Below, piece after piece: positions 1 to 34,393 of a DNA stretch of 48,499 nt (positions are counted from its first letter, which is position 1; each line of letters starts with the position of its first letter). The notes under the pieces are model-generated. The model had not been told where the DNA came from. It saw only the letters and a list, made by a program, of their open reading frames with translations, and ran no database searches. The stretch is from IMG/VR virus record IMGVR_UViG_2061766007_001600. One strand, written 5' to 3'. The position numbers were made by a program, and so were the translations under genes. The DNA is from an uncultured virus (IMG/VR IMGVR_UViG_2061766007_001600) (taxonomy: Duplodnaviria; Heunggongvirae; Uroviricota; Caudoviricetes).

Positions 1-322
1 CAGAAAAATGCAAACAGGGGGGGTGCATATGGACAAGTTCGAAGCAGTATCACATGACCGGATGGTCGAAGAACATAGCCCAAACATTGACGGCAACGGA
101 CTGGAAAGAAGCACCTATAGTGATTATGCGGCGAGGCGACTGATGCCGATTGAGTGTGCACGATTACAGGGCTTTCCTCCGGACTGGTGCGCTGATGTAC
201 CGCACACCGATGCTGCGGAATATAAGCTGTGGGGCAATGGTATCGCACTCCCCTGTCTACTGCCGATGATGAAATCGATGCATGACATTCTGGAGAAAGA
301 CCTGAGAGGAACGGATCAGTGA
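1..322 (+). CDS. C5-cytosine DNA methyltransferase, C-terminal part
   Basis: RRLMPIECARLQGFPPDW (motif IX) and YKLWGNGI (motif X); 5' part outside the window. Confidence 0.85.
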   Translation, partial: RKMQTGGVHMDKFEAVSHDRMVEEHSPNIDGNGLERSTYSDYAARRLMPIECARLQGFPPDWCADVPHTDAAEYKLWGNGIALPCLLPMMKSMHDILEKDLRGTDQ

Positions 323-1089
323 ACCGATTGATACTTGGGAACTGCCTGAAAGAGATGAAGAAGCTGCCGAGCAAGTCGGTTGACATGGTTCTTGCGGATC
401 TTCCCTACGGCACTCTCAACAAGCAGAATAAAAGTTCATATTGGGATCGCATGCTTCCGCTGGATCAGGTGTGGAAAGAATACAAGCGTATCTGCAAGCC
501 GAATGCAGCGATTGTGATGTTCTCACAGGGCATGTTCACGGCGGATCTGATGTACAGCAACAAAGCATGGTGGAGGTACAACCTGGTCTGGGACAAAGGC
601 AGACCGAGCGGTTTTCTGAACGCAAACAGAATGCCTCTCAGATCGCATGAAGACATATGCGTGTTTTATAAGCATCTCCCGGTATATCACCCTCAGATGG
701 TGAAATGCACAGAACAGGAGCGTGTGCATGCCAACAAGAAGCGGAAGACTGTAACGAACCAGTGTTACGGACAATTCGTTCCTACCGTTGCGAAGGTAAA
801 GGATGAGAAATATCCGAAATCGATCATACAGTTCAAAAAGGAGCATAAAATCGGTCAGTTCTATCATCCGACAATGAAGCCGGTTGAACTGCTGGAGTGG
901 CTGATTAAGACGTACACAGATCCAGGCATGGTGGTTTTGGACCCTACGTGCGGATCAGGAAGCACAGGGGTGGCAGCGACAATGACAGGCAGAGACTTTA
1001 TCGGTATAGAGGTCAATCAAGAATACTACGATGTCGCAAAAGTGCGGATCGCTGGGGCAGAGATAGTGATGGAGTCTAACGAAGAATGA
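319..1089 (+). CDS. N4-cytosine/N6-adenine DNA methyltransferase (beta class)
   Basis: DLPYG motif IV near N-terminus, HPTMKP, VLDPTCGSGSTG motif I, FIGIE. Confidence 0.92.
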   Translation: MNRLILGNCLKEMKKLPSKSVDMVLADLPYGTLNKQNKSSYWDRMLPLDQVWKEYKRICKPNAAIVMFSQGMFTADLMYSNKAWWRYNLVWDKGRPSGFLNANRMPLRSHEDICVFYKHLPVYHPQMVKCTEQERVHANKKRKTVTNQCYGQFVPTVAKVKDEKYPKSIIQFKKEHKIGQFYHPTMKPVELLEWLIKTYTDPGMVVLDPTCGSGSTGVAATMTGRDFIGIEVNQEYYDVAKVRIAGAEIVMESNEE

Positions 1090-1709
1090 TTGTGGCAGAC
1101 AGAGGAAGNNNNNNNNNNNNNNNNNNNNNNNNNGATGGTAAGCGTTACGGAACGATCTACGCAGACCCACCGTGGAGGTTTCAGAACCGAACAGGGAAAG
1201 TTGCACCAGAGCATAAAAGACTGAGCAGATATCAGACGATGACGCTTTCGGAGATTATGGCTCTGCCGATTGCCGATATAGCGTCTGAAAAGTCGCATCT
1301 GTACCTATGGATACCGAATGCAATGCTTCCTGATGGTTTAAAAGTAATGGAAGCCTGGGGCTTTGAGTACAAAGGCAACATCGTGTGGGAGAAGATCCGA
1401 AAAGACGGAATGCCTGATGGTAGAGGGGTCGGATTTTACTTCCGGAACGTAACAGAGATCCTGTTGTTTGGGATCAGAAAGAAGTCCGCACCGAACAGGA
1501 CGCTTCAGCCTGCGAGGTCACAGGTGAATCTGGTTCGTGCACAGAAGAGGGAGCACAGCAGAAAGCCTGATGAGATCATTCCGATCATTGAAGCCTGCTC
1601 ACATGGTCCGAGGATCGAGTTGTTCGCCAGAGGCAATCGTGATGGTTGGGACATGTGGGGTGATCAGGCTGATGCATCTTACGAGCCGACATGGAACACA
1701 TATCGGTAG
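1086..1709 (+). CDS. MT-A70 family adenine methyltransferase
   Basis: IYADPPW, LYLW, WGFEYK, REHSRKPDE, RIELFAR, WGDQ. Confidence 0.92.
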   Translation: MIVADRGXXXXXXXXXDGKRYGTIYADPPWRFQNRTGKVAPEHKRLSRYQTMTLSEIMALPIADIASEKSHLYLWIPNAMLPDGLKVMEAWGFEYKGNIVWEKIRKDGMPDGRGVGFYFRNVTEILLFGIRKKSAPNRTLQPARSQVNLVRAQKREHSRKPDEIIPIIEACSHGPRIELFARGNRDGWDMWGDQADASYEPTWNTYR

Positions 1710-1728
1710 ATAGAAAGAGAGGTTTTCA

Positions 1729-2302
1729 ATGCAAACAAAATCAGTGGGTGAGAAGAAACTTATCCTGGTAAAAGATGTGGGTGGCTGCACGAATTTTGGC
1801 GGTGTTGATCTGGTCGGAAGTAAGATGTTTACGATCAAAACGAAATCGACCAATAAACTGTCGTACATATCGGTCTATAAAGACTACAGGAAGACTACCC
1901 GGACAAATCNNNNNNNNNNNNNNNNNNNNNNNNNNNNNNNNNNNNNNNNNNNNNNNNNNNNNNNNNNNNNNNNNNNNNNNNNNNNNNNNNNNNNNNNNNN
2001 NNNNNNNNNNNNNNNNNNNNNNNNNNNNNNNNNNNNNNNNNNNNNNNNNNNNNNNNNNNNNNNNNNNNNNNNNNNNNNNNNNNNNNNNNNNNNNNNNNNN
2101 NNNNNNNNNNNNNNNNNNNNNNNNNNNNNNNNNNNNNNNNNNNNNNNNNNNNNNNNNNNNNNNNNNNNNNNNNNNNNNNNNNNNNNNNNNNNNNNNNNNN
2201 NNNNNNNNNNNNNNNNNNNNNNNNTTTAACAGTGCCGGGAAAGCTATCATATCGATGAACCTGCCGAGTGGAAAAGATGGCACGTACATAGCATCAATTT
2301 AA
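1729..2302 (+). CDS. hypothetical protein(s), mostly in N gap
   Basis: RBS AGAGGT before ATG; 300-nt gap prevents a call. Confidence 0.35.
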
Positions 2303-2334
2303 TAAGGAAGATTGCATGAAAAGGGGGTGCTCAC

Positions 2335-3252
2335 ATGAATTTCTTGGCACATTCAGAGTCGGAATTCTCCGATGTAAGGGTAATCGACAGGGACGGAGAG
2401 CCATGGTTCGTGGGGAAAGATGTCTGTCAGGCATTTGGGGACAAGAATCACAGCAGGTCATTATCGAGGGTAGATGAAGATGACAGAATGATGGCTGAAA
2501 TAGAGGACGCAAAGGGAAGGACACAGAGTGCGATCATCATAAACGAAAGCGGTCTATACGCTTTGCTATTCTCGATGACTCCTCAGAAGACGAACCGGGA
2601 TGGGGTGTCAGATGCGTACCCCATAGCTGTGCATGAGAGAATCGATAAGATCCGGCGATTCAAACGTTGGGTGACCTCAGAGGTACTTCCGTCAATCAGG
2701 AGGAATGGTCTTTATGCAGCTGACGAACTGCTGAACAATCCTGACTTGATGATTTCCGTCCTCACGAAGCTGAAAGAAGAGAGGGCAGCGAAAGAAGCAC
2801 TCCAGGAAGAGAACAAGTACCTGGCTTCCAGGAACACAGAACTAAGCGAAGAGGTAATGGTTAAAGACCAGCAGATAGCTGGCATGCGTCCAAAGGTTTA
2901 CTACTACAATGTTGTGCTTAACTGCAAAGACCTTCTGCCGATATCAGTGATCGCAAAGGACTATGGATGGTCGGCTATCCAGATGAACAATTACCTGAAG
3001 AGCAGAAAGATTCAGTATAAGCAAGGCGACATTTGGCTGCTTTATCAGAAGTATGCAAAGAGCGGTTATACAAGTACAAAGACAACGTATTATGCCGGGA
3101 ACGATGGTAGAAATCACATAACTGTGCATACCTACTGGACGCAGAAGGGGAGAATGTTCCTGTACGATCTGCTGAGAGAAGACAACATCTTTCCCCTGAT
3201 GGAGCAGGAACAGTTCGAGCAAGAAGCATTACGAGCAGTAATGGAATCATAA
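2335..3252 (+). CDS. Phage antirepressor, BRO-N + ANT/KilAC domains
   Basis: GEPWFVGKDVC, INESGLY, FKRWVTSEVLPSIRRNG; C-terminal ISVIAKDYG and WTQKGRMFLY. Confidence 0.92.
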   Translation: MNFLAHSESEFSDVRVIDRDGEPWFVGKDVCQAFGDKNHSRSLSRVDEDDRMMAEIEDAKGRTQSAIIINESGLYALLFSMTPQKTNRDGVSDAYPIAVHERIDKIRRFKRWVTSEVLPSIRRNGLYAADELLNNPDLMISVLTKLKEERAAKEALQEENKYLASRNTELSEEVMVKDQQIAGMRPKVYYYNVVLNCKDLLPISVIAKDYGWSAIQMNNYLKSRKIQYKQGDIWLLYQKYAKSGYTSTKTTYYAGNDGRNHITVHTYWTQKGRMFLYDLLREDNIFPLMEQEQFEQEALRAVMES

Positions 3253-3262
3253 AACTGAATAA

Positions 3263-3398
3263 CCGGAGCGTAGTTCAACGGCAGAACAGGCGGGTTGTGG
3301 GTAATTGATGGTGAAAATATAAATCCGTGCTTTGATAATATCTCCTTTCTATGTGATGATGTGTGTCGCCTATGTGGGTTCGAGTCCCACCGCTCCGG
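3263..3398 (+). ncRNA. tRNA-like RNA 1 with 72-nt insert replacing the anticodon loop
   Basis: CCGGAGCG/CGCTCCGG acceptor, TA, GTTC-AACGGCA-GAAC D arm, GGCGG/TCGCC stem, GTGGG-TTCGAGT-CCCAC T arm; no anticodon loop, no CCA. Confidence 0.8.
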
Positions 3399-3486
3399 AT
3401 TATGGGTTGTTTTGTTGTGGTAGCAACAGCCTATGATGCTGATATCCTTATNNNNNNNNNNNNNNNNNNNNNNNNNNNACCGCAAC

Positions 3487-3533
3487 AGTGTACCGCTCCT
3501 CCAATCGTGACCGATACAACGCAGCGGTACACT
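3487..3533 (+). ncRNA. 11-bp perfect hairpin with 25-nt loop starting CCTCC
   Basis: AGTGTACCGCT/AGCGGTACACT stem. Confidence 0.55.
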
Positions 3534-3535
3534 CA

Positions 3536-3617
3536 CAGGACGTAACTCAATGGGAGAGGTGTGTCGGCTGTAATGGTTGTAAGACACAAGATGCGGGTTC
3601 GAGTCCTGCCGTCCTGA
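3536..3617 (+). ncRNA. tRNA-like RNA 2 with 17-nt anticodon loop
   Basis: CAGGACG/CGTCCTG acceptor, ACTC-AATGGGA-GAGG D arm, GTGTC/GACAC stem, GCGGG-TTCGAGT-CCTGC T arm. Confidence 0.8.
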
Positions 3618-3866
3618 GTAGGGTCAGAGAGCAAATGACCACCGGACCCAGTGCAGAAAACGACTATTTTTCACCACTCAGATACTCTTGATCACAGTGC
3701 CTGATGGTGGATGAATCTTCGTGNNNNNNNNNNNNNNNNNNNCGAGAGTAAGCAGGCCAATACTGGTGGGATGTGCGGTTTGGGGTGAATCCAAAACCCT
3801 GTAAACAATGTTTATTCGCCACGCTTACAAAGCATGGTTGAAGCTTTTCTTACGAGAGTATGGTCT

Positions 3867-4710
3867 ATGTATATAAAGTCACCGTTGAACTACATAGGAG
3901 CGAAATATAAGCTTTTAGATCGAATTATCCCGATTCTCCCACAAGAGAGTAGATGCTTTGTAGATTTGTTCACAGGTGGCATGAACGTGGGAATAAATGT
4001 CAATGCAGATATAATATATGCTAATGATCATATTGATTATCTGATAGAGTTGTATGATTATTTCAAAAGAACTCCAACTGGCGATTTGAGAACAGCAATA
4101 AATGAGGTGATAAGCAATTATTCTCTGAACAAACAAAATGTTGATGGATATAGCCAGTTAAGACAAGACTATAATACGAATAAAAGCCCATTATTTCNNN
4201 NNNNNNNNNNNNNNNNNNNNNNNNNNNNNNNNNNNNNNNNNNNNNNNNNNNNNCTTTATGTTTAATATGCCGTTTGGAAGAAATAGGAGTAGCTACAATG
4301 CAAATATAGAAACAAACCTTATTCGCTTTTCTGCGGCACTCAAAGAAAAGAACGTAATCCTTAGCAGTTGCGATTTCAGATCCTTTGATTTTTCCAAAAT
4401 AGAGGTGGGCAGTGTCGTGTATTGCGATCCTCCTTACCTGATTTCAACCGGTTCGTACAATGATGGTAAAAGAGGGTTTGGTNNNNNNNNNNNNNNNNNN
4501 NNNNNNNNNNNNNNNNNNNNNNNNNNNNNNNNNNNNNNNNNNNNNNNNNNNNNNNNNNNNNNNNNNNNNNNNNNNNNNNCAAATGACGAACTAATTCGAT
4601 GGAGCGAAAAGTATAACGTAACATATGTTGATGCAGACTATTCAAACTGTGCATATAACAAAAAGGATAAAAAGGCAAAAAGCGTAGAAGTCCTTATCAC
4701 GAACTTCGCN
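3867..4710 (+). CDS. Dam/D12-class N6-adenine DNA methyltransferase (3' end in gap)
   Basis: KSPLNYIGAK, FVDLFTGG, FNMPFG, VYCDPPY, EVLITNF; visibly AT-richer than flanks. Confidence 0.88.
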
Positions 4711-4756
4711 NNNNNNNNNNNNNNNNNNNNNNNNNNNNNNNNNNNNNNNNNNNNNN

Positions 4757-4888
4757 CTATTATTCCGCATCTTTTGATCTGGCAAACAGTTCAATCTTCA
4801 TGCGAGTTTCGATGGCTTCCCGGATATAAGTGTTGACGCTAACTCCTGCGGCTGACGCAGCTTCCTGGATCTCAGCCCTCTTCCCTTT
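4757..4888 (-). CDS. Small ribbon-helix-helix-like DNA-binding protein (3' part; start in gap)
   Basis: Own translation: KGKRAEIQEAASAAGVSVNTYIREAIETRMKIELFARSKDAE*; resembles 19061-19297 and 48246-48443. Confidence 0.65.
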
Positions 4889-5745: not shown

Positions 5746-5991
5746 ATGACGAACACACAGATCATTTTAACTGAAATGCAGCTGCATGGTATCACAGAAG
5801 AAGTTCACACCTATGCCGTTTGGAAGAGCAAGGGGTATCAGGTGCAGAGAGGTCAGCATGCTCTGTTCACCACAAAGGTCTGGAAGAAGGTCCGGAAGAC
5901 CTCAAAGGATGGTGAAGAGTATGACAAGATGATCATGACGAATGCTGCGTTTTTTGGAGAGAGTCAGGTCGCCGAAATCGAGGTGGCATAA
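5746..5991 (+). CDS. Minimal ArdC-N-like (ssDNA-binding-type) protein
   Basis: HTYAVWKSKGYQVQRGQHA...FFGESQV matches the TYxxWxxxGxxVxxGxKA pattern; RBS GGAGG. Confidence 0.55.
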   Translation: MTNTQIILTEMQLHGITEEVHTYAVWKSKGYQVQRGQHALFTTKVWKKVRKTSKDGEEYDKMIMTNAAFFGESQVAEIEVA

Positions 5992-9590: not shown

Positions 9591-9783
9591 CTGATGAGCC
9601 GTTGGCTGATTACCATCCCCCTCCTGTCTCCCTACAGGATACAAGGTGTCGGCCACTCCCAACGGCTTATCGGTCCGGGGTGTTCTCAAACTCACCATAA
9701 CCGTTCGCCACAACGAGTATGGACTCTTTCTTGATACCGGACAAAAAAGCATCTCCGTTCAAGTGTTCGGAGATGCTTTTATT
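9591..9783 (+). ncRNA. Putative ~190-nt structured sRNA convergent with the recombinase gene
   Basis: GATGAGCCGTTGG/CCAACGGCTTATC and GTCCGG/CCGGAC stems between promoter and terminator. Confidence 0.5.
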
Positions 9784-9786
9784 TTA
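9743..9786. terminator. Bidirectional intrinsic terminator
   Basis: AAAAAAGCATCTCCG-loop-CGGAGATGCTTTT. Confidence 0.8.
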
Positions 9787-11693
9787 TGCGTCTGTTACTG
9801 TCATGGTAACAGGCTGCTTTTTTTATAGAGATCCGTCTTGTACACAANNNNNNNNNNNNNNNNNNNNNNNNNNNNNNNNNNNNNNNNNNNNNNNNNNNNN
9901 NNNNNNNNNNNNNNNNNNNNNNNNNNNNNNNNNNNNNNNNNNNNNNNNNNNNNNNNNNNNNNNNNNNNNNNNNNNNNNNNNNNNNNNNNNNNNNNNNNNN
10001 NNNNNNNNNNNNNNNNNNNNNNNNNNNNNNNNNNNNNNNNNNNNNNNNNNNNNNNNNNNNNNNNNNNNNNNNNNNNNNNNNNNNNNNNNNNNNNNNNNNN
10101 NNNNNNNNNNNNNNNNNNNNNNNNNNNNNNNNNNNNNNNNNNNNNNNNNNNNNNNNNNNNNNNNNNNNNNNNNNNNNNNNNNNNNNNNNNNNNNNNNNNN
10201 NNNNNNNNNNNNNNNNNNNNNNNNNNTTCATGGTGTCCAGCTTTTCCTGAAGTTCGGCTTCTCTGTTAATCAGTTCCTGACGCTGAAGAATGAAGTCTTT
10301 CTCGCTGATGGAGTCGTCTATCAGATACAGGGAGCGCAGCCGTTCAAGTGCTTTCTGTGTCTTCTCGATCTCCCGGCGAAGCCTGGTCAGTTCGGAATCA
10401 GGCTTCTTTGATGGTTGAAGCTTCAAAGAAGCACCGTAGATGTTTTCACTGACTTTGCCGGACTTCAGCACTGTGTATAAGTCTTTCAGCCCTGTTTCCT
10501 CAATATGGTCGATATAGTGGAACGTGCTTCCGATCAGCAGTCGATCCTGCAGTTCGAGGGGTGAGCCGATGGTGTCGATGCTGTTTTGGGCATTTATCAT
10601 GTTCAGGATGTAGCTAAAAACAATGTCACCGAGCACTGGGTCGCTTGTACTCTTAGCCTGACAATGGTCATAGCTTTTCAGGCGGGTAGGGCAGATGTAC
10701 CTGGTATATCTGAATCCGTCCTTTTTCTCACCGGAAGAGGAAACCCTGAGCAGATGGCCACAGCTGNNNNNNNNNNNNNNNNNNNNNNNNNNNNNNNNNN
10801 NNNNNNACTTTTCCTGTACTTCTGTCGGTCTATTCTTGTATTCTGATCCATTATCTGTAAGATCCGCTCTTTCTGCGACCGGGAGATGATAGAGGGGTGA
10901 TGGTCCGTAACAGTCACCCACNNNNNNNNNNNNNNNNNNNNNNNNNNNNNNNNNNNNNNNNNNNNNNNNNNNNTGTACTCATAATCGCCTGTATAAAAGC
11001 GGCTTCTGAGAATCAGACTCAGTGATACAGGATTCCACATCACTCCCGATCTTGTCGTCAGACCGTCATGGTTCATGTTCCTGGCGAGGTTAATGAGAGA
11101 TTTTCGATCTTCATACTCATCGTGGATTCTCCGTACGACAGCAGCCTCTTCCTCATTCACCGAGAACGTCATGGTGTCTGCGTCATAATCATATCCGTAC
11201 GGAATCCGGCNNNNNNNNNNNNNNNNNNNNNNNNNNNNNNNNNNNNNGATATCATGGTAGCAGTCACTCTTTCCGAGGTCATGTTCCGCTCCAACTCAGC
11301 GAATACCAGGATGATCTTGAGCATCGCCTCTCCCATGGCGGTAGACGTATCAAACTGCTCAGACCGGGAGACAAAAGTGACTCCCAGCTGCTTTAATTCT
11401 GCGTACATGGTTGCGAAATCAAGGAGATTACGGCTGATCCGGTCGATCTTCCAGACGAGCAAGTGTGTATAAGCACCTGTGCGCAGCATGGTCATCATAC
11501 GCTGAAACTCAGGACGGTCAGTGTTCTTGCCTGAGTATCCGGCATCCTCAAAGACTGTGTATTCCCTGGCATGCAGAATCAGGTCTGCATAGGATATCAG
11601 GTCTTTCCTTTGCATGGGAAGGGAATCTTTGTCGATTTGGTGGACGGTCGAGACCCGGCAGTAGATTGCGACCCTGTTCTCCGTTTGCTGCAT
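9779..11693 (-). CDS. Large serine recombinase (phage integrase); frame breaks at gaps, 3' end approximate
   Basis: AIYCRVST, DAGYSGKNTDRPEFQ, KIDRISRNLLD, FAELER; recombinase domain, Zn ribbon (CGH..YIC..C), coiled coil. Confidence 0.93.
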
Positions 11694-11737
11694 TGCTTTA
11701 TCCTTCTCACTGTGCTTATATCAACGACCGTATTGCG

Positions 11738-12075
11738 TTAGCTTGTCATGGTAGCGGCATATGCGTCTGACAGCCCCTTCACATAGGACAAAGCGGTCGC
11801 CTGGAGTTCAGGCGGAAGAGATCGGAAAGACAAGAGCATGGACAATTCCGAGGTATTCTCTGCTCTACGTTCATCGTTCTTATTGAAGTCTTCACCGGTC
11901 AGGATGTAGTCGATTGAGCGGTTGAAGAATTTGGAAATGACGAGAAGCATCTCACCAGAGGGCATACCACCGTGCTGCCACCTGGAGATGTTGCCTGTGC
12001 TTATCCCCATTTTTTTCATGGCTGTGGTAGGGGTGAGTCCCTTCTCGTTGCNNNNNNNNNNAATTTTGAAGTCAT
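11738..12075 (-). CDS. CI-like XRE repressor
   Basis: HTH GISTGNISRWQHGGMPS...SIDYILTG; GGAGGA RBS before ATG at 12075; divergent from cro. Confidence 0.85.
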
Positions 12076-12097
12076 GGCAATCCTCCCAAAAATAAGT

Positions 12098-12151
12098 GCG
12101 CACTATTGTGCACTTTAAACAGTTGACAGACGCACCTCAGTGAGATACTCT
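12098..12151. promoter_or_regulatory. Lysis/lysogeny switch: rightward promoter with two operators
   Basis: TTGACA-17-TACTCT; GCGCActattgTGCAC and ACGCAcctcagTGAGA. Confidence 0.7.
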
Positions 12152-21841: not shown

Positions 21842-22779
21842 ATGAAAAACAGAAACGAATTCATCGAGCGCATGAAAAAGCAGACAATCGGTGTCGAGGT
21901 TGAGATGTACAACATCACTCGTCCTGCGGCGGCAAAGGCAGTTGCTGAGTTCTTCGGAACGTATCAGGGTGAATGGTCAATCGGACATGAGTGTCATCTG
22001 GACACCTACTACTGCAAGGACACTCAGGGCAGGAAGTGGAAGTTCGCAAGTGACTCCTCTATCAGAGCGAGAAGCACCAGAACACAGTGCGAGTTGAACA
22101 CACCGGTTCTTCTGTACGAAGACATTCNNNNNNNNNNNNNNNNNNNNNNNNNNNNNNNNNNNNNNNNNNNNNNNNNNNNNNNATTCATGTGGGTGCGGAT
22201 ATTGGGAAGCCGAATGGACACACAGCGCAGTCCCTCAGGAATCTTGCGAATCTCATGAAAGCGCACGAAGAGATTCTGATCGAGTCCACCGGTCTTGCGT
22301 TCGAGAGGCTGAGATGGTGCAACACCAGTAGCGATGCTNNNNNNNNNNNNNNNNNNNNNCACTGGAAGACCTGAAAAGGATCTGGTATGCGTCTCATGGC
22401 AGTGGTGAGTATGGTTGCCTACATCATTATGATCACTCAAGATACCACATGCTGAATCTGCATGCACTCTTTCAGGAGAATGGTCACGGAACGGTCGAGT
22501 TCAGACTGTTTCAGTTCGACAATCCTGAGGGCGGTCGGAACGGTAAAAAGAACGGAATTCACGCCGGAATGATCAAGGCTTACATGCAGTTGGTTCTGGC
22601 AATGAGTCAGTACGCTAAGGAAATCCGCTACGCAACACCGAATTCAAATGACGACAGCAACCACAAGTACGCAATGCGGTGTTGGCTTCTGAGGCTTGGG
22701 TTCATCGGAGNNNNNNNNNNNNNNNNNNNNNNNNNGTCTGAGCGGTGATGCGGCACGTAGCGGAAGACACGCTGCCTGA
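21842..22779 (+). CDS. Putative amidoligase (COOH-NH2 ligase) family
   Basis: TIGVEVEM, WKFASDSSI, ELNTP, IHVG, LNLH, GTVEFRLF, MRCWLLRLGFIG. Confidence 0.88.
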
Positions 22780-22842
22780 TGTAGTAGAAGAGCACACAGA
22801 GCCGTTTAGGACGGCTCTGTGGCATAGGAAGGGGGGATCAAA

Positions 22843-23109
22843 ATGTATAACAGGGAACTTTACAAGCGAGGGGAAAAGGATTTGATAGAGCAGGTCCTGA
22901 AAAAGACCGGTGAGGTTGCCACTCGATATCTCGACAGTGCGGATAAGCTGATTGACGAAGAGATAGAGGAGATGGCATGGGAAGCGGAAAATGACCCTTA
23001 CTACTGGAGTGGAAGCGAGGCGATGGCTTACTTCTGCCTGTGTGAGGAGCGTGGTGTCGGAACGGCGGAAGAATGGCTGCGCATGTATCGTGAAATGAAA
23101 TCAGCATAA
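22843..23109 (+). CDS. hypothetical protein
   Basis: ORF between amidoligase and GGCT. Confidence 0.6.
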   Translation: MYNRELYKRGEKDLIEQVLKKTGEVATRYLDSADKLIDEEIEEMAWEAENDPYYWSGSEAMAYFCLCEERGVGTAEEWLRMYREMKSA

Positions 23110-23131
23110 GGAATAGGGAGGAAGAATTGCT

Positions 23132-23683
23132 ATGGCGAAGAGAAGAGTAAAAGACACAGATCGGTACTATCTGGCATACGGATCAAACCTGTCCGTTGAT
23201 CAGATGCTCTACAGGTGTCCTGATGCGGTCTATGTAGGGTACACGTACATCAAGGACTATGAGCTGCTGTTCAAGGGTTCGCAGACCGGATCATACCTGA
23301 CGATTGAGAAAAAGGACGGTGCAGTAGTGCCGGTGCTCGTATGGAAGATCAGTAAGGCAGATGAGAAGAATCTGGACAGGTACGAGGGATGCCCGCACTT
23401 CTACTACAAGAAGATGATGAAGGTGAAGGTCTACAACTTCCTGACACACAGACCAGGCAAAGAGGTCGATGCGATGGTGTACATCATGCATGAGGAAAGA
23501 CGACTGGGAGTGCCGAGCGGATCATACTACAGCGTCTGCAAAGAGGGTTATGACCGGTTCGGATTCGATGAATGCCACCTGATAAAGGCACTGGCGAATT
23601 CGGTCGGAGATAAAAGAGCGGATCATCTCAGTGAATACTGGGGCAAAAACTATGGTCTGAACAGGGTATCAGGCTGGCGGTAA
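23132..23683 (+). CDS. Gamma-glutamylcyclotransferase (AIG2-like)
   Basis: YLAYGSNL, QMLYRCP, LDRYEG, GY..FGFD. Confidence 0.9.
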   Translation: MAKRRVKDTDRYYLAYGSNLSVDQMLYRCPDAVYVGYTYIKDYELLFKGSQTGSYLTIEKKDGAVVPVLVWKISKADEKNLDRYEGCPHFYYKKMMKVKVYNFLTHRPGKEVDAMVYIMHEERRLGVPSGSYYSVCKEGYDRFGFDECHLIKALANSVGDKRADHLSEYWGKNYGLNRVSGWR

Positions 23684-23697
23684 AGGAAGGAGGGAAC

Positions 23698-24114
23698 ATG
23701 AGGGAACAGACAGAGATATCAGAAGAGTATACGGAGATTGCGGCAGATGTGATCAAAGAGAATGAGGATCTTTCATGGTTACAGGAAGCCGATGTGACAA
23801 TCGGCTACATNNNNNNNNNNNNNNNNAGCGGAAAGCCGGTGTGTGCGGACTGCCGGAAGATCCCGGACAGGGATAAGAGGTTCATACCATTCGATTTCAT
23901 TATAACGGTCTACGATCCGAATGTATGTGGGTTCTCAGATGAGCAGATGAAGATCCTGCTGTATCACGAATTGCTGCATGTGGGAGTTGATCAGAAAGAC
24001 GATGGTTCGCTGAAACTGTACATCGTTCCGCATGACATTGAGGACTTTTCAGCGGTGATTGATAAGTACGGAGAAACCTGGGCAGAGAATGATGGAGCAG
24101 ATGACGATATTTGA
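23698..24114 (+). CDS. Putative phage metallopeptidase
   Basis: ILLYHELLH, IVPHDIEDF..VIDKYG. Confidence 0.8.
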   Translation: MREQTEISEEYTEIAADVIKENEDLSWLQEADVTIGYXXXXXXSGKPVCADCRKIPDRDKRFIPFDFIITVYDPNVCGFSDEQMKILLYHELLHVGVDQKDDGSLKLYIVPHDIEDFSAVIDKYGETWAENDGADDDI

Positions 24115-25438: not shown

Positions 25439-25558
25439 CCGGACGTAGTTCAATCATGGTAGAACATCAAACCCTAACAAGTTGTCAGACCTATTTTTTC
25501 ACCTCCTGATTCAAAGAAAAATGCTTATGAGATGTGGGTTCGAGTCCCACCGTCCGGG
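25439..25558 (+). ncRNA. tRNA-like RNA 3 with ~55-nt insert replacing the anticodon loop
   Basis: CCGGACG/CGTCCGG acceptor, GTTC-AATCATGGTA-GAAC D arm, TCA/TGA short stem, T arm identical to RNA 1. Confidence 0.8.
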
Positions 25559-27541
25559 TTGTAACCATGGTTAATACGCAAAAAAGGGGGAATTGGCGAA
25601 TGAGAGGATACTGTGATATTTGCGGCCAGAGACTTACAGATGCGTCAGGTCACTGGACATTGATAGGGAGAGACCGGGGATTCTTTGCTGTTCCGGGCTT
25701 GGCAAATGATCAGCATATCGAGTGTTGCTTATGGTGCAAAGACAGTATTGATGAAGCGATAGCAGCGATTTCAGAGCAGCATAGGAAGGAGATGGAAAAA
25801 CTTGAGCGGTGAGAATCCCTGTAACATCTGCAAGAGCAGCGACAATTGTGATGGCTGTATCCTGAATGACCTGTCGTGGCACTCAGGGGAATGCTACAAC
25901 GATGGCTGCATGCTTCAATATGATTGCGGTTGCCTGCTGAACCTGGATAACGTTTGTAAATCGTCTACATGCTTCAAGGCACCGGGAGTGTGGGTGATGG
26001 ATGCGGTTGAGGACGAAGAGGAGACAGATGATGAGATGTGAAAACTGCCCAGCTGGCTGGGNNNNNNNNNNNNNNNNNNGCAACGACTGTGGTTGCCTGA
26101 TTTACGGTCACGGTCTGTTCAACGACAATTGCCACCTGTCGAAGGATCAGATAAGGAAACGGCTTGCCGAGTTAGATGATTACGAGCATGGCCNNNNNNN
26201 NNNNNNNNNNNNNNNNNNNNNNNNNNNNNNNNNNNNNNNNNNNNNNNNNNNNGGATGACACTTGCAGCTTCAATGGTGAACCGAGTTATGTATCTTATCC
26301 ACCGGAGCGGATGCGGAAGGGTGTGTACTATCCGCTATACGGCACAGTAGACATGCATTATCAGAGGATATCCGATTACCGCAGAGGGTATGAGGACGCA
26401 AAAGNNNNNNNNNNNNNNNNNNNNNNNNNNNNNNNNNNNNNNNNNNNNTCGAATACATCTGATGCATCAGAAGAGTCCGGAAGTGTGGTATTTGCTTGAG
26501 GAAGATGTTGATTATATCGGAGCAAGCCACAACGGAAAGCCGTTAATCATGGATGCCGAGTGTGTATATTCCGCTGACAGCCTGTGGGATATGCTTCACC
26601 AGATGCAGAACAACAAGGACTGGAGATTCTATGTGGTGCACAGTTGGATCGATAGCAAGCATCGATGGCGGGATCAGGAATATCCGCATCACAGGCACAT
26701 ATGCTCTATTGCTGGATTCATTCCTGAGGTGTGTGACATAAGACTGGATGATAATCCGTATTTAGCGGACTGGAAAGTAGACTTCTGCCGGGAACTGTGG
26801 GTATGCGAACTTGATGGTGAGCACATGTACAAGGTGAGAGGTTGGAAAAAGAAAGCTGGAAAGGCTGCTTTTGAGTACATTAAGGGGAACAAACTGAAAT
26901 GGGAAGAAGAATATCAGAACTATACCCTATCATAATCGGCATGAACCCACCGACAAAAGAAGTCGTGCTGATTCGGACAATGAAACAGTTTCCAGGTGGT
27001 TATGCATGCGCAATTTATCATGCGGACTTTCCGAAAGGAACGAAGAGAGGAGAGTCATTCGCAATGACAGATCAATCGGTCAAACGGCACAGTTTGGCTG
27101 CATGGTTGCAATTTAAAGATTCTGATGCAATGCGGAGGTTCGGACAGATGCTCGTTGACTTCGCTGATGGTGATTTGAAAGAGGGTGATTAACATGACGA
27201 AAGAAACAGAGCAATTACTCAAGCTGATTAGAGAGAATCCGGATCTTCCGGTCATTCCGATGGTCAACGAGGAAGTTGTTGCTGAAGACTGCTATACCTG
27301 GTGGCGAGGTGAGTGGATACGGTCAGAAATAACTGAGTATTACATCGGACGTGAATACGCTCATTTTAAGGACGATGATGAGGAAGACGTACTGAATGAC
27401 ATGGTTGGCTGCGAGTACAGCCACGATAAGTCAGGGAGAGATATTTACGATCTTTCCGATGAAGAGTGGGCTGCGCTGTATGCATCTATCCCATGGCAAA
27501 AAGCAATCGTTGTGTATATAGGTGTTTAAGGAGGATGAACG

Positions 27542-31410: not shown

Positions 31411-33273
31411 TACTTAATCAGTTTATGCGAAAAATAGGATATATCAGCGAAAAGAACTTAGTAACTGTAGCTTTTGAAGTATATGACAAAAATTGCACCG
31501 AGAAAGCGACAGATGAAAAGGATTTTTACTTTCGATCAGGCAATGCTAATGCTGTTGGGTATATCTGCGGAAGGCTTGGGATAGATATTACAAAACTGAT
31601 AAAGCAGAGGAACAAGAGGGCGAGTGATGAAGTGTAGAGAATGTACTTTTATGAGCGATTTTGGGGATGGATTATACCGATGCACGAATCACGATAGCAT
31701 CCATTACATGGAATACACAGGTGTGTGTTGTGAAGATGAATGTGATGATGGCGAATATCTTGTGCCACCAGAACAGGAGGAATCATGATGAATAGTCCTG
31801 TACTTGATTCGCTCTGTTTGGCACATCACCCAAGATGGATTGAGATTAGTGATGCGAAAGGATGGATTCGCTTGATTTGTTCTAATTGTGGCGAACCGAA
31901 AACTTGTAGGAAGAAAAACATTCCGAAGGTATGCCCTGGTTGTAAGGAAAAAATGGAGGGTGAATGAGTGAAAAAGGACTTTACAGGAAACTGCAAAAGA
32001 ATTTCTGCATCGGCTGTGATNNNNNNNNNNNNNNNNNNNNNAATGCAAAGAACGCATGCAAACGTTGCCGGAAGGTGAATACGAAAAGAGAAAAGAAAAG
32101 ATGGGAACAGGAGAGTGAGAGATGAACAATCAGGAAGCGATTAAGTGGCTAAGAGAAGCCGAAATCCTTGACCTTGCCAGTGGAAATACAAAGGACAGGG
32201 AAGCGGTTGACTTAGCGGTGGAGACGATGGAGAAGCAGATACCGATGAAGCCTGTTATTGGGTANNNNNNNNNNNNNTGAAGAGAACTGATCCAGAAAAG
32301 GCGCAAACAAAAACTGATTGCTGTCCTGTATGCGGAAGAACATTAGGAGTAAGTAAGTTTGTACAAACAAAATCGGGGTTACGGTTTGGTGATTTGCATT
32401 GTAAGCGGTGCGGTCAGGCTATTGATTGGGAGGGCGAAGGATGACAAGGGAGGATATGTTAGACTGCTTGCACTATGAACTCGAAAATCTCAGGGTGGCA
32501 CGAGGGTCAGACTATAGTGGCGTAGAAGCTATAGAGATGGCAATCAAAATGCTGGAACCGCAGGAACTCTCCAAAAACTCTCCAAAACTCGACAAGGAAA
32601 ATGGAGACTTGCAACCAACTTGCAACCAACTTGCAACTGGCACCATCAGCCGACAGGCGGCGATTGATGCGCTTGCGAAGCAGATGCCACGGTCATATAC
32701 GCCAGATGGTTNNNNNNNNNNNNNNNNNNNNNNNNNNNNNNNNNNNNNNNNNNNNNNNNNTCAAAACTATTGAAATACTGCCATCCGCACAGCCAGAACC
32801 CTGTGTGAATACGATAGATGCGCTTAATGAAAGTATTAAGCATTTTGATGATATGGCAGAAGAATGTCGGAGAAATGCAAACATTGAGCGAAATGATTAT
32901 ATGGATATGAGGGATGATGCCGCANNNNNNNNNNNNNNNNNNNNNNNNNNNNNNNNNNGGTTGAATGAACTGAAGTGGCTTAGGGAACGGTTTCAATCAC
33001 AGCCAGAGATCGTGCGGTGCAAGGACTGCGAATACTGTGTACCCGGCTATATCACAGATAACGATGATTTTATCCCGCCAAGATGTGGGAGGTTGCGTCA
33101 GACGATGCGNNNNNNNNNNNNNNNNNNNNNNNNNNNNNNNNNNNNNNNNNNNNNNNNNNNNNNNNNNNNNNNNNNNNNNNNNNNNNNNNNNNNNNNNNNN
33201 NNNNNNNNNNNNNNNNNNNNNNNNNNNNNNNNNNNNNNNNNNNNNNNNNNNNNNNNNNNNNNNNNNNNNNNNN

Positions 33274-34393
33274 CACTTTATGCGCAATGGAGCCCACAAT
33301 CGGCGCGGAAGACCGTGTTTTCGGAGAATTACAGGTTGCTCCGGATTACAAGGAAGTTATTGCATTTATAAATACCCTGCAATTGAAGCTCGGTCTTAAC
33401 GATGATTATTCTATTGAATGCGGTTACGAGGCTGGCTGTCTCGGATATACCCTATACCACCAGCTTACCAATGCCGGAATCGAGTGCGTGATTCTTGCGC
33501 CGACAACTATGCTTACTCAGCAAGGCCAACGGATCAAAACGGATAAAAGGGATGCACGCCTGATCGCGCAGTGCCTGTGTTATGGAGGGTACCATCCAAT
33601 TTATATCCCTACTGGAGAAGATGATTCTGTAAAAGAATATCTCCGAATGAGAGACGATCATAAACTGGCATTGAAAAAACTGAAACAGCAGATCAACGCA
33701 TATGTCCTTCGGCATGGGCACCAGTATACCGGAACCAAGTGGACCATCAAACATGTCACCTGGTTGAAGAAACTGGATTTCGATCCTGTGTATCGGGAAA
33801 CACTTAACGAATACTTGGCTTCCTATGAAGAGCAGGAAGCAAAGATCGAACGTTTCGATAAAAGGATCGAAGAGATAGCTACCGAAGCACGCTATCAGGA
33901 AAATGCGAAAAAGCTGGGCTGTCTCCTTGGGATCCGTACACACACGGCACTGTCCCTGATTGTGGAGACCGGAGACTTTAAGCGTTTTGCCAAAGGGAAT
34001 ACCTATGCGGCGTTCCTGGGACTGGCACCCGGTGAGCATTCCAGTTCAAAAAATGTAAACAGGCTTGGAATCTCCAAAGCAGGGAATGCACATCTGCGCT
34101 GGCTTCTGATTGAATCAGCAAAAGCCCTTTGCAAAGGAGTTGTCGGTTATAAGTCCAAGGCGCTCCGCGCCAGACAGAGCGGACAGTCAGCTGAAGTCAT
34201 AGCTTATGCTGATAAAGCGAATACCCGGCTGCGCAGCAAGTACTACAGGATGATCCGCCATGGAAAGAAGAATAATGTGGCAGTTGCTGCTGTAGCAAGA
34301 GAACTTGCCTGCTTCATTTGGGGTATGATGACTGGAAACATCTGCCTAACTCCCGGATCAGGTACATCAGCTCCGGCTGCCAGTCAAGGGTAA
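33274..34393 (+). CDS. IS110 DEDD transposase/recombinase
   Basis: GYEAG, KTDKRDA, FLGLAPGEHSS, ISKAGNAHLR, VAVAAVAREL. Confidence 0.93.

What the first reader, a model, noticed from the sequence alone, without database searches (positions are those of the whole stretch)
3294..3365. Insert of tRNA-like RNA 1 reads as the antisense of a whole translation start region
Seen: its reverse complement is AGAAAGGAGATATT-ATC-AAA GCA CGG ATT TAT ATT TTC ACC ATC AAT TAC CCA CAA. That is a strong SD, normal spacing, ATC where ATG is expected (one mismatch), then an open frame (M)KARIYIFTINYPQ. I found no matching gene in the readable window. Inference: the target is in trans; FTINYP loosely resembles motif I (FTxNN) of some rolling-circle Rep proteins, which may be chance. 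The RNA 3 insert similarly gives AGGAGGTGAAAAAATAG.
Basis: partly seen in the sequence, partly recalled or inferred. Interest (0 to 1): 0.7.

Follow-up and report, generated by a model that had tools for sequence, protein, structure and literature searches.

The report
Phage tRNA-like RNAs displaying anti-Shine-Dalgarno loops
A cattle-gut phage carries tRNA-shaped RNA genes whose anticodon loop is replaced by a long floppy loop holding a copy of the ribosome's own mRNA-docking sequence, which suggests an RNA that binds ribosome-binding sites in general, not one particular gene start.

Summary
The letters are as described: the reverse complement of 3294-3365 reads AGAAAGGAGATATT-ATC-AAA GCA.... 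Only the Shine-Dalgarno (SD) complement is more than chance.

- **Start codon and frame.** ATC is not a start codon. The frame runs 29 codons into the tRNA 5' half and stops. Pfam finds nothing.
- **Target.** No site with complementarity beyond a generic SD turned up in the readable window, INPHARED, PLSDB or IMG/VR. Flank-shuffled controls did as well in 55 of 340 trials.
- **What is there.** Three paralogous tRNA-like genes pass Rfam's tRNA threshold: 3264-3398, 3536-3617 and 25439-25558. They have intact acceptor, D and T arms, but 72-, 17- and about 68-nt inserts in place of the 7-nt anticodon loop.
- **The inserts.** The two long ones are unrelated in sequence and unusually unstructured. 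They hold the only two plus-strand 9-mers in the window identical to the Firmicute 16S rRNA 3' tail.

Best reading (0.4): stable tRNA-scaffolded RNAs displaying an anti-SD sequence. No expression data exist, and no relatives were found beyond near-identical copies in other gut runs.

The parts
3264..3398 (+). tRNA-like RNA 1. It has a 7-bp acceptor stem (C1-G72), a D arm GUUC/GAAC with G18 G19, an anticodon stem GGCG(G)/(U)CGCC and a T arm GUGGG-UUCGAGU-CCCAC. No CCA is encoded.
   Evidence: Rfam RF00005 38.6 bits (threshold 29), model positions 1-71, with 74 nt where the model has 9. Contigs of four other runs cover it; X4 and X8 are identical except 3395 C>T.
3294..3365 (+). Insert of RNA 1 (the finding): a 72-nt A/U-rich, unstructured loop in place of the 7-nt anticodon loop.
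   Evidence: On its own it folds to -4.4 kcal/mol, and 197 of 200 shuffles fold at least as well (z +1.92).
3342..3351 (+). Anti-SD element of RNA 1: CUCCUUUCU(A), identical to the last 9 nt of the Firmicute 16S 3' tail (10 nt with the annotated terminal A).
   Evidence: one of only two + strand 9-mer matches in the window. Tail sequence from PMC5732282. The UUUCUA part has unpaired probability 0.8-0.99 in the full RNA.
3487..3533 (+). Stable hairpin in the spacer. It ends 3 nt before RNA 2, and its loop holds CUCCUCC in this window.
   Evidence: z -4.16, 0 of 200 shuffles fold as well. The pair 3496-3524 changes from C-G to U-A in X4 and X5. The loop C's at 3498 and 3502 are not conserved there.
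3536..3617 (+). tRNA-like RNA 2: cloverleaf body with anticodon stem GUGUC/GACAC closing a 17-nt loop.
   Evidence: Rfam 41.8 bits, 19 nt where the model has 9. ARAGORN's tRNA-Leu(taa) call needs a shifted D stem, a U.U/G.U-rich anticodon stem and G at position 33.
25439..25558 (+). tRNA-like RNA 3, a paralogue of RNA 1. It shares CGTAGTTCAA, GAACA and the 21-nt ATGTGGGTTCGAGTCCCACCG; its acceptor stem resembles that of RNA 2.
   Evidence: Rfam 42.0 bits, 61 nt where the model has 15. The shared pattern matches only these two places in the window and 0 in 100 shuffles.
25466..25533 (+). Insert of RNA 3: a 68-nt unstructured loop, unrelated in sequence to insert 1.
   Evidence: 189 of 200 shuffles fold at least as well (z +1.39). 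Local alignment against insert 1 gives p 0.71 in the sense orientation and 0.35 antisense.
25499..25507 (+). Anti-SD element of RNA 3: UCACCUCCU, identical to 9 nt in the middle of the 16S 3' tail.
   Evidence: Mean unpaired probability of CUCCU is 0.76.

Best explanation
RNA 1 and RNA 3 are phage-encoded small RNAs built on a tRNA scaffold. RNA 2 is a smaller variant with no anti-SD. The window is a temperate, Firmicute-type phage or prophage from ruminant gut.

Shown:
- The acceptor, D and T arms are kept as in real tRNAs.
- The anticodon loop is replaced by a roughly 70-nt, A/U-rich loop that is unusually free of structure.
- Each long loop displays a 9-10-nt copy of the 3' tail of 16S rRNA, which is the anti-Shine-Dalgarno sequence.

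Inferred:
- The RNAs are co-transcribed with neighbouring genes, since no promoter or terminator of their own stands out.
- RNase P and RNase Z cut them out, they receive CCA, and the L-shaped body makes them stable.
- The exposed anti-SD, plus the A/U-rich bases 5' of it, pairs with SD-plus-spacer regions of mRNAs in competition with the 30S subunit. This damps or times translation.
- RNA 1 would favour AGAAAGGAG-type sites and RNA 3 AGGAGGUGA-type sites.

The resemblance to a 'whole start region' comes from complementarity to a generic strong ribosome-binding site. It does not point to one particular gene.
For: 1. **Real tRNA-like bodies under selection.** All three pass Rfam's tRNA threshold over the full model. 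U8, A14, G18 G19 and the T-loop UUCGAGU are present (sequence). Between paralogues the acceptor stems differ by changes on both sides that keep pairing: RNA 1 against RNA 3 at pairs 2, 4 and 5, and RNA 2 against RNA 3 at pair 2. The T stem of RNA 2 has C-G where RNA 1 and 3 have U-A. These are read directly.
2. **Anti-SD content is not chance.** The only two + strand 9-mers matching the 16S tail lie in the two long inserts. + strand CTCCT is depleted, 18 against 80. The third + strand 8-mer locus, 37585, sits just upstream of the start of the - strand ORF 37277-37576, where it is the complement of that ORF's SD.
3. **The inserts share nothing else**. The motif is therefore what is common to two otherwise diverged loops.
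4. **The inserts are less structured than their own shuffles.** 197 of 200 and 189 of 200 shuffles fold at least as well. RNA 3 with its downstream leader gives z +2.03. The anti-SD bases are predicted largely unpaired.
5. **The RNA 1 gene is real DNA in independent samples.** Contigs of four other runs, from four studies, cover it.
6. **No - strand gene explains the SD-like complement.** There is no ATG, GTG or TTG at a usable distance.
Against: - **No expression data.** No RNA run holds the stretch, so the ends, CCA addition and stability are all inferred.
- **No target found.** A generic anti-SD would also hit the phage's own genes. Nine loci on the + strand carry 9-mer complements of the 16S tail, which makes a simple repressor model awkward.
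- **Weak conservation evidence.** X4 differs from the window at only 1 place between 2575 and 3394, so the identity of the insert there says nothing. For X5 and X6, 11 of 22 and 4 of 10 differences are not listed and cannot be placed.
- **Only two observations.** RNA 1 and RNA 3 are paralogues, and CUCCU could be a relic of a CCU (Arg) anticodon loop.
- **RNA 2 has no anti-SD.** The CUCCUCC in the spacer hairpin loop is lost in X4 and X5.
- **No enrichment among other insert-bearing tRNA-likes.** In 53 from IMG/VR and JGI, CTCCT occurs in 4 against 2.4 expected (p 0.22). The CCTCC excess (9 against 2.5) comes largely from one family, where it forms a stem.
- **No relatives** in IMG/VR, JGI metagenomes or GTDB genomes by the patterns I used.
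- **Unknown host.** The tail sequence used is that of Bacillus subtilis.
Confidence: 0.4

Rival explanations
1. The RNA 1 insert is a specific trans-acting antisense RNA against one translation start region (SD, spacer, start codon and first codons) of a host, plasmid or rival-phage gene, perhaps a rolling-circle Rep. RNA 3 has a target of its own.
For: The letters are as read. The loop is single-stranded and long enough for extended pairing. RNA 1 lies before the integrase in a region of methyltransferase and anti-repressor genes, where a prophage could act on incoming DNA. Host genomes and 11% of the window could not be searched.
Against: The target start would have to be AUC or AUU, or tolerate a G-G mismatch at AUG. 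No extended match was found in the readable window, INPHARED, PLSDB or IMG/VR. Flank-shuffled controls do as well in 55 of 340 trials. The IMG/VR seed hits are ordinary MKA-type starts that diverge right after the seed. Pfam gives no Rep or other match to the 29-residue frame.
Confidence: 0.12
2. Decoys. The tRNA-shaped RNAs with enlarged, open, U/A-rich 'anticodon' loops and a copy of the 16S tail soak up host defence RNases that cut tRNA anticodon loops or remove the anti-SD end of 16S rRNA. This would protect the translation apparatus during infection.
For: The tRNA body is intact and the loop is open. Each long loop holds a 16S-tail copy. Passages of bioRxiv 10.1101/2021.11.10.468108 report that activated Cas13a leads both to anticodon-loop cleavage of tRNAs and to a cut that removes the anti-SD end of 16S rRNA. 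That phages carry tRNAs to counter tRNA-cutting defences is stated in the abstract of PMC12409363, seen in a search listing only.
Against: No defence nuclease that recognises the free anti-SD sequence is known to me in Firmicutes (recalled). A decoy for anticodon nucleases needs no anti-SD. The three loops share no nuclease-type motif. Nothing was tested directly.
Confidence: 0.12
3. Degenerate tRNA paralogues. They survive only as RNase P/Z processing or stability signals in polycistronic transcripts, or as pseudogenes. The inserts are junk expansions, and CUCCU is a relic of an Arg(CCU) anticodon loop or a coincidence.
For: - The genes are co-oriented with their neighbours and lack a clear promoter or terminator of their own.
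- RNA 2 changes at 6 places in X4. One change makes an A-C mismatch at pair 2:71, and two lie in the loop.
- ARAGORN in intron mode reads RNA 3 as Arg(cct).
- Sporadic insert-bearing tRNA-likes of many kinds exist in phage contigs.
Against: - Junk would not be expected to be less structured than its own shuffles in both cases.
- Junk would not be expected to hold the only two 9-mer copies of the 16S tail on the + strand.
- A 5-nt anticodon relic does not explain 9-10 nt of identity to the tail.
- Compensatory changes show that both bodies are maintained.
Confidence: 0.2
4. Interrupted but functional tRNA genes. The insert is an intron that is removed to give a decoding tRNA.
For: The insert sits in the anticodon-loop region, where bacterial tRNA introns lie. 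ARAGORN in intron mode proposes His(gtg), Tyr(gta) and Arg(cct).
Against: - 72, 17 and 68 nt are far below the size of a self-splicing group I intron (size is recalled), and Rfam finds no intron family in the window.
- The ARAGORN solutions need G-U- and mismatch-rich anticodon stems and odd variable arms.
- No contig in the four laid DNA runs lacks the insert (no joints).
- No splicing endonuclease or RNA ligase was found among the 107 ORFs scanned, 77 against PHROGs and 30 against Pfam.
Confidence: 0.05
5. An alanine-accepting, tmRNA-like molecule. The tRNA-like body is charged, and the loop acts on or in the ribosome.
For: In all 4 other runs laid, 3395 is T, which turns pair 3:70 of RNA 1 from G-C into G-U. 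G3:U70 is the main identity mark for alanyl-tRNA synthetase and is also used by tmRNA (recalled). The topology, a large insert where the anticodon arm is, is that of tmRNA.
Against: - The window's own copy has G-C, and RNA 2 and RNA 3 have G3-C70.
- C to T in a G-C pair is the most likely neutral change.
- The discriminator is G, not A.
- There are no pseudoknots and no tag-like reading frame ending in a stop. ARAGORN finds no tmRNA and Rfam none.
Confidence: 0.05

Closest known systems
Canonical phage-encoded tRNAs (Rfam RF00005)
   Same: Acceptor, D and T arms and the tertiary-contact bases score above the family threshold. The D arm of RNA 2 is that of common phage tRNA-Gly(UCC) and tRNA-Lys(UUU) genes: 72 IMG/VR loci, ARAGORN Gly and 33 Lys. 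The T arm of RNA 1 and 3 is common in phage type II tRNAs.
   Different: There is no 7-nt anticodon loop and no credible anticodon. Instead there are 17-, 68- and 72-nt loops, so these RNAs cannot decode.
tmRNA
   Same: A tRNA-like acceptor and T-arm module with a large insertion in place of the anticodon arm. Relatives of RNA 1 carry G3:U70.
   Different: Full D arm, no pseudoknots, no tag reading frame, a third to half the size. Not recognised by ARAGORN or Rfam as tmRNA.
Engineered 'tRNA scaffold' for expressing foreign RNA inside the anticodon arm (method papers such as PMC3753655 and PMC3401473, seen in a search listing only)
   Same: Same design: a cargo RNA inserted at the anticodon stem of a tRNA body, which gives processing and stability.
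   Different: That is a laboratory construct; this would be a natural case. I found none in print in four searches.
Base-pairing small RNAs of Firmicutes that block ribosome-binding sites with exposed C/U-rich motifs (for example RsaE/RoxS; recalled, not from a call)
   Same: An accessible pyrimidine-rich anti-SD element in a single-stranded region.
   Different: Those are terminator-ended hairpin RNAs with short UCCC-type seeds. Here there is a tRNA body, no terminator, and 9-10 nt identical to the 16S tail.
Viral tRNA-like elements fused to regulatory RNAs (the tRNA-microRNA genes of murine gammaherpesvirus 68) and bacterial Y-RNA-like YrlA (both recalled)
   Same: A virus or mobile element uses a tRNA-like module to have a non-decoding RNA processed or recognised.
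   Different: Different hosts, enzymes and topology: in the herpesvirus genes the cargo lies 3' of the tRNA, and YrlA is circularly permuted. No Rfam Y-RNA hit.

Membership tests
tRNA (RF00005) | Cloverleaf with acceptor, D and T arms, scoring above Rfam's gathering threshold | tested here: met
   38.6, 41.8 and 42.0 bits against a threshold of 29, model positions 1-71.
tRNA (RF00005) | 5-bp anticodon stem closing a 7-nt loop with U33 and an anticodon | tested here: not met
   74, 19 and 61 nt where the model has 9, 9 and 15. ARAGORN without introns calls only RNA 2, with a strained structure and G at position 33.
tRNA interrupted by a group I intron | Self-splicing intron core in the anticodon loop | tested here: not met
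   No intron family reaches threshold anywhere in the window. The inserts are 17-72 nt and fold worse than shuffles.
tRNA with protein-spliced (bulge-helix-bulge) intron | Bulge-helix-bulge motif at the exon-intron borders and a splicing endonuclease | tested here: inconclusive
   ARAGORN's intron mode gives strained solutions. I ran no explicit motif search. No endonuclease or ligase was seen in PHROGs or Pfam scans. No insert-free form appears in four DNA runs.
tmRNA | G3:U70 alanine identity pair | tested here: inconclusive
   G-C in the window; G-U in 4 of 4 other runs for RNA 1. RNA 2 and RNA 3 have G-C.
tmRNA | Tag reading frame with a resume codon and stop, flanked by pseudoknots | tested here: not met
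   ARAGORN finds no tmRNA and Rfam none. predicts almost no structure in the inserts; it cannot predict pseudoknots.
Trans-acting antisense RNA against a specific start region | Extended complementarity to a target beyond the generic SD, better than shuffled controls | tested here: not met
   Window: 55 of 340 controls are as good. Public phage, plasmid and viral-contig sets: chance-level or seed-only matches. Host genomes could not be searched.
SD-blocking small RNA (works like) | Accessible anti-SD sequence in a stable RNA | tested here: met
   9-10 nt identical to the 16S tail, predicted largely unpaired, in loops less structured than shuffles. Stability and binding were not tested.
SD-blocking small RNA (works like) | The RNA is expressed and represses translation of bound mRNAs | not testable with these tools
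   No RNA run holds the stretch.

The most novel reading that the evidence does not exclude
A natural 'tRNA scaffold'. The phage has turned tRNA genes into carriers that present a free copy of the 16S rRNA 3' tail in a 70-nt open loop. RNA 1 presents the distal half of the tail and RNA 3 the middle. The result is a ribosome-tail mimic that competes with 30S subunits for Shine-Dalgarno sites, or draws off factors that act on that tail. It would give the phage a general handle on translation initiation. In relatives with G3:U70 the RNA might even be alanylated.
Probability: 0.3. Interest if true: 0.8.

Novelty: new variant of a known kind. Interest (0 to 1): 0.55.

Why it matters
If these RNAs are made and bind ribosome-binding sites, they would be the first natural example of a design used in the laboratory: cargo RNA grafted into a tRNA body. 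They would also be a new way for a phage to interfere with translation initiation, by copying the ribosome's own mRNA-docking sequence. A further point is that tRNA hits with long 'introns' in phage contigs should not be annotated as tRNAs or discarded without inspection, because several unrelated kinds turned up in passing.

If the loops turn out to be junk, the finding reduces to three odd tRNA pseudogene-like elements.

Tried and rejected
- **Relatives.** Strict and relaxed D-arm/T-arm patterns gave 0 loci in IMG/VR for the strict form. The relaxed forms gave 47 IMG/VR and 25 JGI loci, none alike. The shared 21-nt T arm gave 115 IMG/VR loci, mostly ordinary type II tRNAs and none with a comparable loop. 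An exact 33-mer of insert 1 gave 0 in GTDB genomes. INPHARED gave no match to the RNA regions or to 8.4 kb of the phage.
- **Synteny.** 80 IMG/VR loci with relatives of the upstream anti-repressor (57% identity at best) contain no tRNA. The one relative of the gamma-glutamyl cyclotransferase near RNA 3 has none either.
- **Host.** No genome is held for the window. The head-morphogenesis protein has no relative in GTDB genomes. The genome search could not be centred on a Clostridia genome, so no host-genome target search was possible.
- **Expression.** No RNA holder is listed among 24 runs.
- **RNA 1 pairing with RNA 3.** GGUGAAAA against UUUUCACC is not better than shuffles (p 0.35).
- **Cis pairing.** The RNA 3 anti-SD is not predicted to pair with the SD of the next gene.
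- **A - strand peptide gene behind the SD-like complement.** There is no canonical start, the frame is 29 codons, and Pfam finds nothing.
- **Promoter inside the insert.** Two weak 9-of-12 matches, not above shuffles.
- **General enrichment of CTCCT** in other insert-bearing tRNA-likes: not found.

Full report
**Setting.** The window is 48,499 bases at 46.6% G+C, and 5,459 bases (11%) are masked as N in 84 runs. PHROGs annotation of 77 ORFs shows a temperate Firmicute-type phage or prophage:
- DNA methyltransferases and an Ant anti-repressor at 1-4836;
- a serine-recombinase integrase and a repressor on the minus strand at 9779-12103;
- RecT, a DnaD-like replisome organiser and RusA;
- an amidoligase, gamma-glutamyl cyclotransferase and metallopeptidase group at 21842-24114 (Pfam PF18894);
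- HNH, two transposases, large terminase, portal and head morphogenesis up to the window's end.

No whole genome is held for the window. It has no match in INPHARED. The stretch 2335-3451 is held by contigs of runs labelled bovine gut or gut metagenome.

**The objects.** Rfam finds exactly three families' worth of hits in the window, and all are tRNA (RF00005). They lie at 3264-3398 (38.6 bits), 3536-3617 (41.8 bits) and 25439-25558 (42.0 bits); the threshold is 29. Each covers model positions 1-71. Each has a long insertion where the model has the anticodon loop: 74 nt for 9, 19 for 9 and 61 for 15. The finding's coordinates, 3294-3365, are the 72 bases between G31 and U39 of the first one.

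All three keep U8, A14, G18 G19 and the T-loop UUCGAGU. All start with C1-G72, and none encodes CCA (sequence). RNA 1 and RNA 3 share CGTAGTTCAA, GAACA and a 21-nt T arm; a pattern built on these matches only those two places and 0 of 100 shuffles. RNA 2 and RNA 3 share the acceptor stem apart from pair 2.

Between paralogues, helix differences are changes on both sides that keep pairing. The acceptor pairs 2, 4 and 5 differ in this way between RNA 1 and RNA 3, and pair 2 between RNA 2 and RNA 3. One T-stem pair differs in this way in RNA 2 (read). The tRNA bodies are therefore maintained. They are not tRNAs in the decoding sense. ARAGORN without introns calls only RNA 2, as Leu(taa), using a shifted D stem, a U.U/G.U-rich anticodon stem and G33. 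In intron mode it offers strained His, Tyr and Arg solutions.

**Checking the observation.** The reverse complement reads as stated. The frame from ATC gives IKARIYIFTINYPQPACSAVELRSGYSVL and then a stop. ATC is not a start codon. The frame runs into the antisense of the tRNA 5' half, and Pfam has no match at E up to 10. The start codon, the open frame and the Rep likeness therefore add nothing beyond chance.

The SD complement is another matter. On the plus strand, which carries most genes, CTCCT is depleted: 18 against 80 on the minus strand. The mature 3' tail of Bacillus subtilis 16S rRNA is GAUCACCUCCUUUCU (passages of PMC5732282). I looked for every k-mer of that tail. The only two plus-strand 9-mers in the window are CTCCTTTCT at 3342 (insert of RNA 1) and TCACCTCCT at 25499 (insert of RNA 3). 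The only other plus-strand 8-mer locus, 37585, lies just upstream of the start of the minus-strand ORF 37277-37576 and is the complement of its SD. Two of two hits fall in about 140 of 43,040 readable bases, which is about 1e-5 by my arithmetic. This statistic is post hoc.

**The loops.** The two long inserts are unrelated in sequence: local alignment gives p 0.71 in the sense orientation and 0.35 antisense. The antisense result also disposes of an RNA 1-RNA 3 pairing that I had noticed. Both inserts are less structured than their own dinucleotide shuffles. For insert 1 the energy is -4.4 kcal/mol and 197 of 200 shuffles fold at least as well. For insert 3 it is -3.0 kcal/mol and 189 of 200. 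In the full RNAs the anti-SD bases are largely unpaired. RNA 3 with its downstream leader is also under-structured (z +2.03) and shows no pairing of the anti-SD with the next gene's SD.

**Target searches.**
- Within the readable window the best antisense site for insert 1 is 14 nt with one G-U at 25780-25793, the SD of the ORF at 25802. Among 221 SD-bearing start regions it scores -28.4 kcal/mol against a mean of -14.6.
- Controls that keep CTCCT and shuffle the flanks reach that value in 55 of 340 trials.
- Whole-insert duplex energies are matched by 6 of 8 shuffles for insert 1 and 4 of 8 for insert 3.
- Against INPHARED and PLSDB the insert finds only matches at E 0.5 or worse.
- In IMG/VR the seed AAGGAGATATTATNAAAGC hit 15 loci: 10 with ATG, 3 ATA, 2 ATT, none ATC. 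All diverge right after the seed.
- The RNA 3 seed CAGGAGGTGAAAAAANNG hit 96 loci (95 aligned), with at most 20 contiguous pairs.

Both antisense strands are therefore generic strong ribosome-binding sites. Host genomes could not be searched.

**Natural variants.** Contigs of four other runs from four studies were laid on 2335-3723.
- X4 spans the whole stretch with 40 differences, all listed. Only one falls in RNA 1 (3395 C>T) and none in the insert. However, X4 has only one difference between 2575 and 3394, so this says little about selection.
- X8 covers 3263-3413 with that same single difference.
- For X5 and X6, 11 of 22 and 4 of 10 differences are unlisted and cannot be placed.
- 3395 is T in all four runs. 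This makes pair 3:70 G-U, the alanine identity pair (recalled). It may be no more than the commonest neutral change in a helix.
- RNA 2 differs at six places in X4. Two are in the 17-nt loop, one turns a G-U into A-U in the T stem, and one creates an A-C at pair 2:71.
- The hairpin at 3487-3533 is strongly structured (z -4.16, 0 of 200 shuffles). In X4 and X5 it shows a C-G to U-A change at 3496-3524, while its loop's CUCCUCC is lost.
- No joint that would remove an insert was seen.

**Distribution.** No relative with a comparable loop turned up in IMG/VR, JGI metagenomes or GTDB genomes with the patterns I could use. The neighbouring protein genes are not linked to tRNAs elsewhere. Insert-bearing tRNA-like genes of other kinds do exist in phage contigs. 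As a group they are not enriched in CTCCT: 4 of 53 against 2.4 expected, p 0.22. The CCTCC excess comes largely from one family, where it forms a stem. One rumen-type contig (L104) has a tRNA-like gene whose extended anticodon arm is capped by a UUCCUCCUCUCCU loop.

**Interpretation.** The coherent picture is a tRNA body that is kept, carrying a long loop that is open and presents a copy of the ribosome's anti-SD tail. The mechanism I think most likely (0.4) has these steps, all inferred:
- RNase P and RNase Z excise the RNA;
- the L-shaped body stabilises it;
- the loop pairs with SD-plus-spacer regions in competition with 30S subunits.

Difficulties remain. The phage's own genes carry such SDs at nine loci. 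There are no expression data. There are only two, paralogous, examples.

Rivals:
- a specific antisense RNA with an unseen target (0.12);
- a decoy for RNases that hit anticodon loops or the 16S tail (0.12; the lead is);
- degenerate tRNAs kept only as processing signals (0.2);
- introns (0.05);
- an alanine-charged, tmRNA-like RNA (0.05).

**In print.** Four searches of the held library found no natural tRNA-scaffolded anti-SD RNA in phages. They used these terms:
- tRNA-like, phage, anticodon loop, insertion, prophage;
- phage-encoded tRNA, intron;
- tRNA scaffold, natural, small RNA;
- tRNA-like, anti-Shine-Dalgarno, phage.

I saw search listings only, except for the passages read. Subscription journals are not covered.

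**Verdict.** The underlying objects are real and unusual, and the anti-SD content is the part that stands. They are a new variant of known kinds (phage tRNA-like RNAs; SD-blocking small RNAs). Interest 0.55.

Noticed in passing
window 3395: In contigs of all 4 other runs laid, C3395 is T. This turns pair 3:70 of tRNA-like RNA 1 from G-C into G-U, the alanine identity pair (its meaning is recalled).
   Followed up: partly
window 3487-3533: A strongly structured hairpin (z -4.16) ends 3 nt before RNA 2. The pair 3496-3524 changes from C-G to U-A in two other runs. Its loop holds CUCCUCC here but not there. It could be released as a spacer RNA by tRNA processing.
   Followed up: partly
L084, L089, L099/L126, L103, L120, L128, L130, L239 (around the match in each locus): Phage and metagenome tRNA genes with a normal anticodon stem-loop but an insert of about 50 nt between the D arm and the anticodon arm. 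The insert often starts with A-rich TTTC(T/C)CT-like bases and ends in GTTA. This is a different kind of interruption from the one studied here.
   Followed up: no
L086, L090, L091, L094, L102, L106, L107, L110, L114, L116, L121: A conserved tRNA-like gene of about 130 nt on 11 IMG/VR contigs. It has a CCUCC-tetraloop-GGAGG hairpin after the D arm, a CAU-anticodon-like hairpin further on, and a long extra region before the T arm.
   Followed up: no
L104:1493-1603 (+): A tRNA-like gene with a reduced D loop and an extended anticodon arm of about 15 bp, capped by a UUCCUCCUCUCCU loop. It is the only other anti-SD-like loop on a tRNA body that I saw.
   Followed up: no
L305 (around 601-672): A tRNA-like gene with the same D arm as RNA 2 and an anticodon stem UGGUG/CACCA closing a 15-nt loop. 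It is a sporadic parallel to RNA 2.
   Followed up: no
window 21842-24114: Amidoligase fragments, gamma-glutamyl cyclotransferase and a phage metallopeptidase (PF18894) lie together, 1.3-3.6 kb upstream of RNA 3. This looks like a peptide-modification module of unknown role.
   Followed up: no
window 40099-41104: The large terminase reads in two frames on either side of the N run 40470-40542. Masked runs therefore need not keep the true length, and ORF calls across N runs are unreliable.
   Followed up: no
window 33083-34393 (+) and 35572-36762 (-): Two transposase genes (PHROGs 2199 and 157) sit between the HNH gene and the terminase. They are likely insertion sequences inside the phage.
   Followed up: no
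window 5746-5991: A weak match to the N-terminal domain of the anti-restriction factor ArdC (22.4 bits, just under the 22.6 cut-off). It lies in the methyltransferase-rich region that also holds RNA 1 and RNA 2.
   Followed up: no
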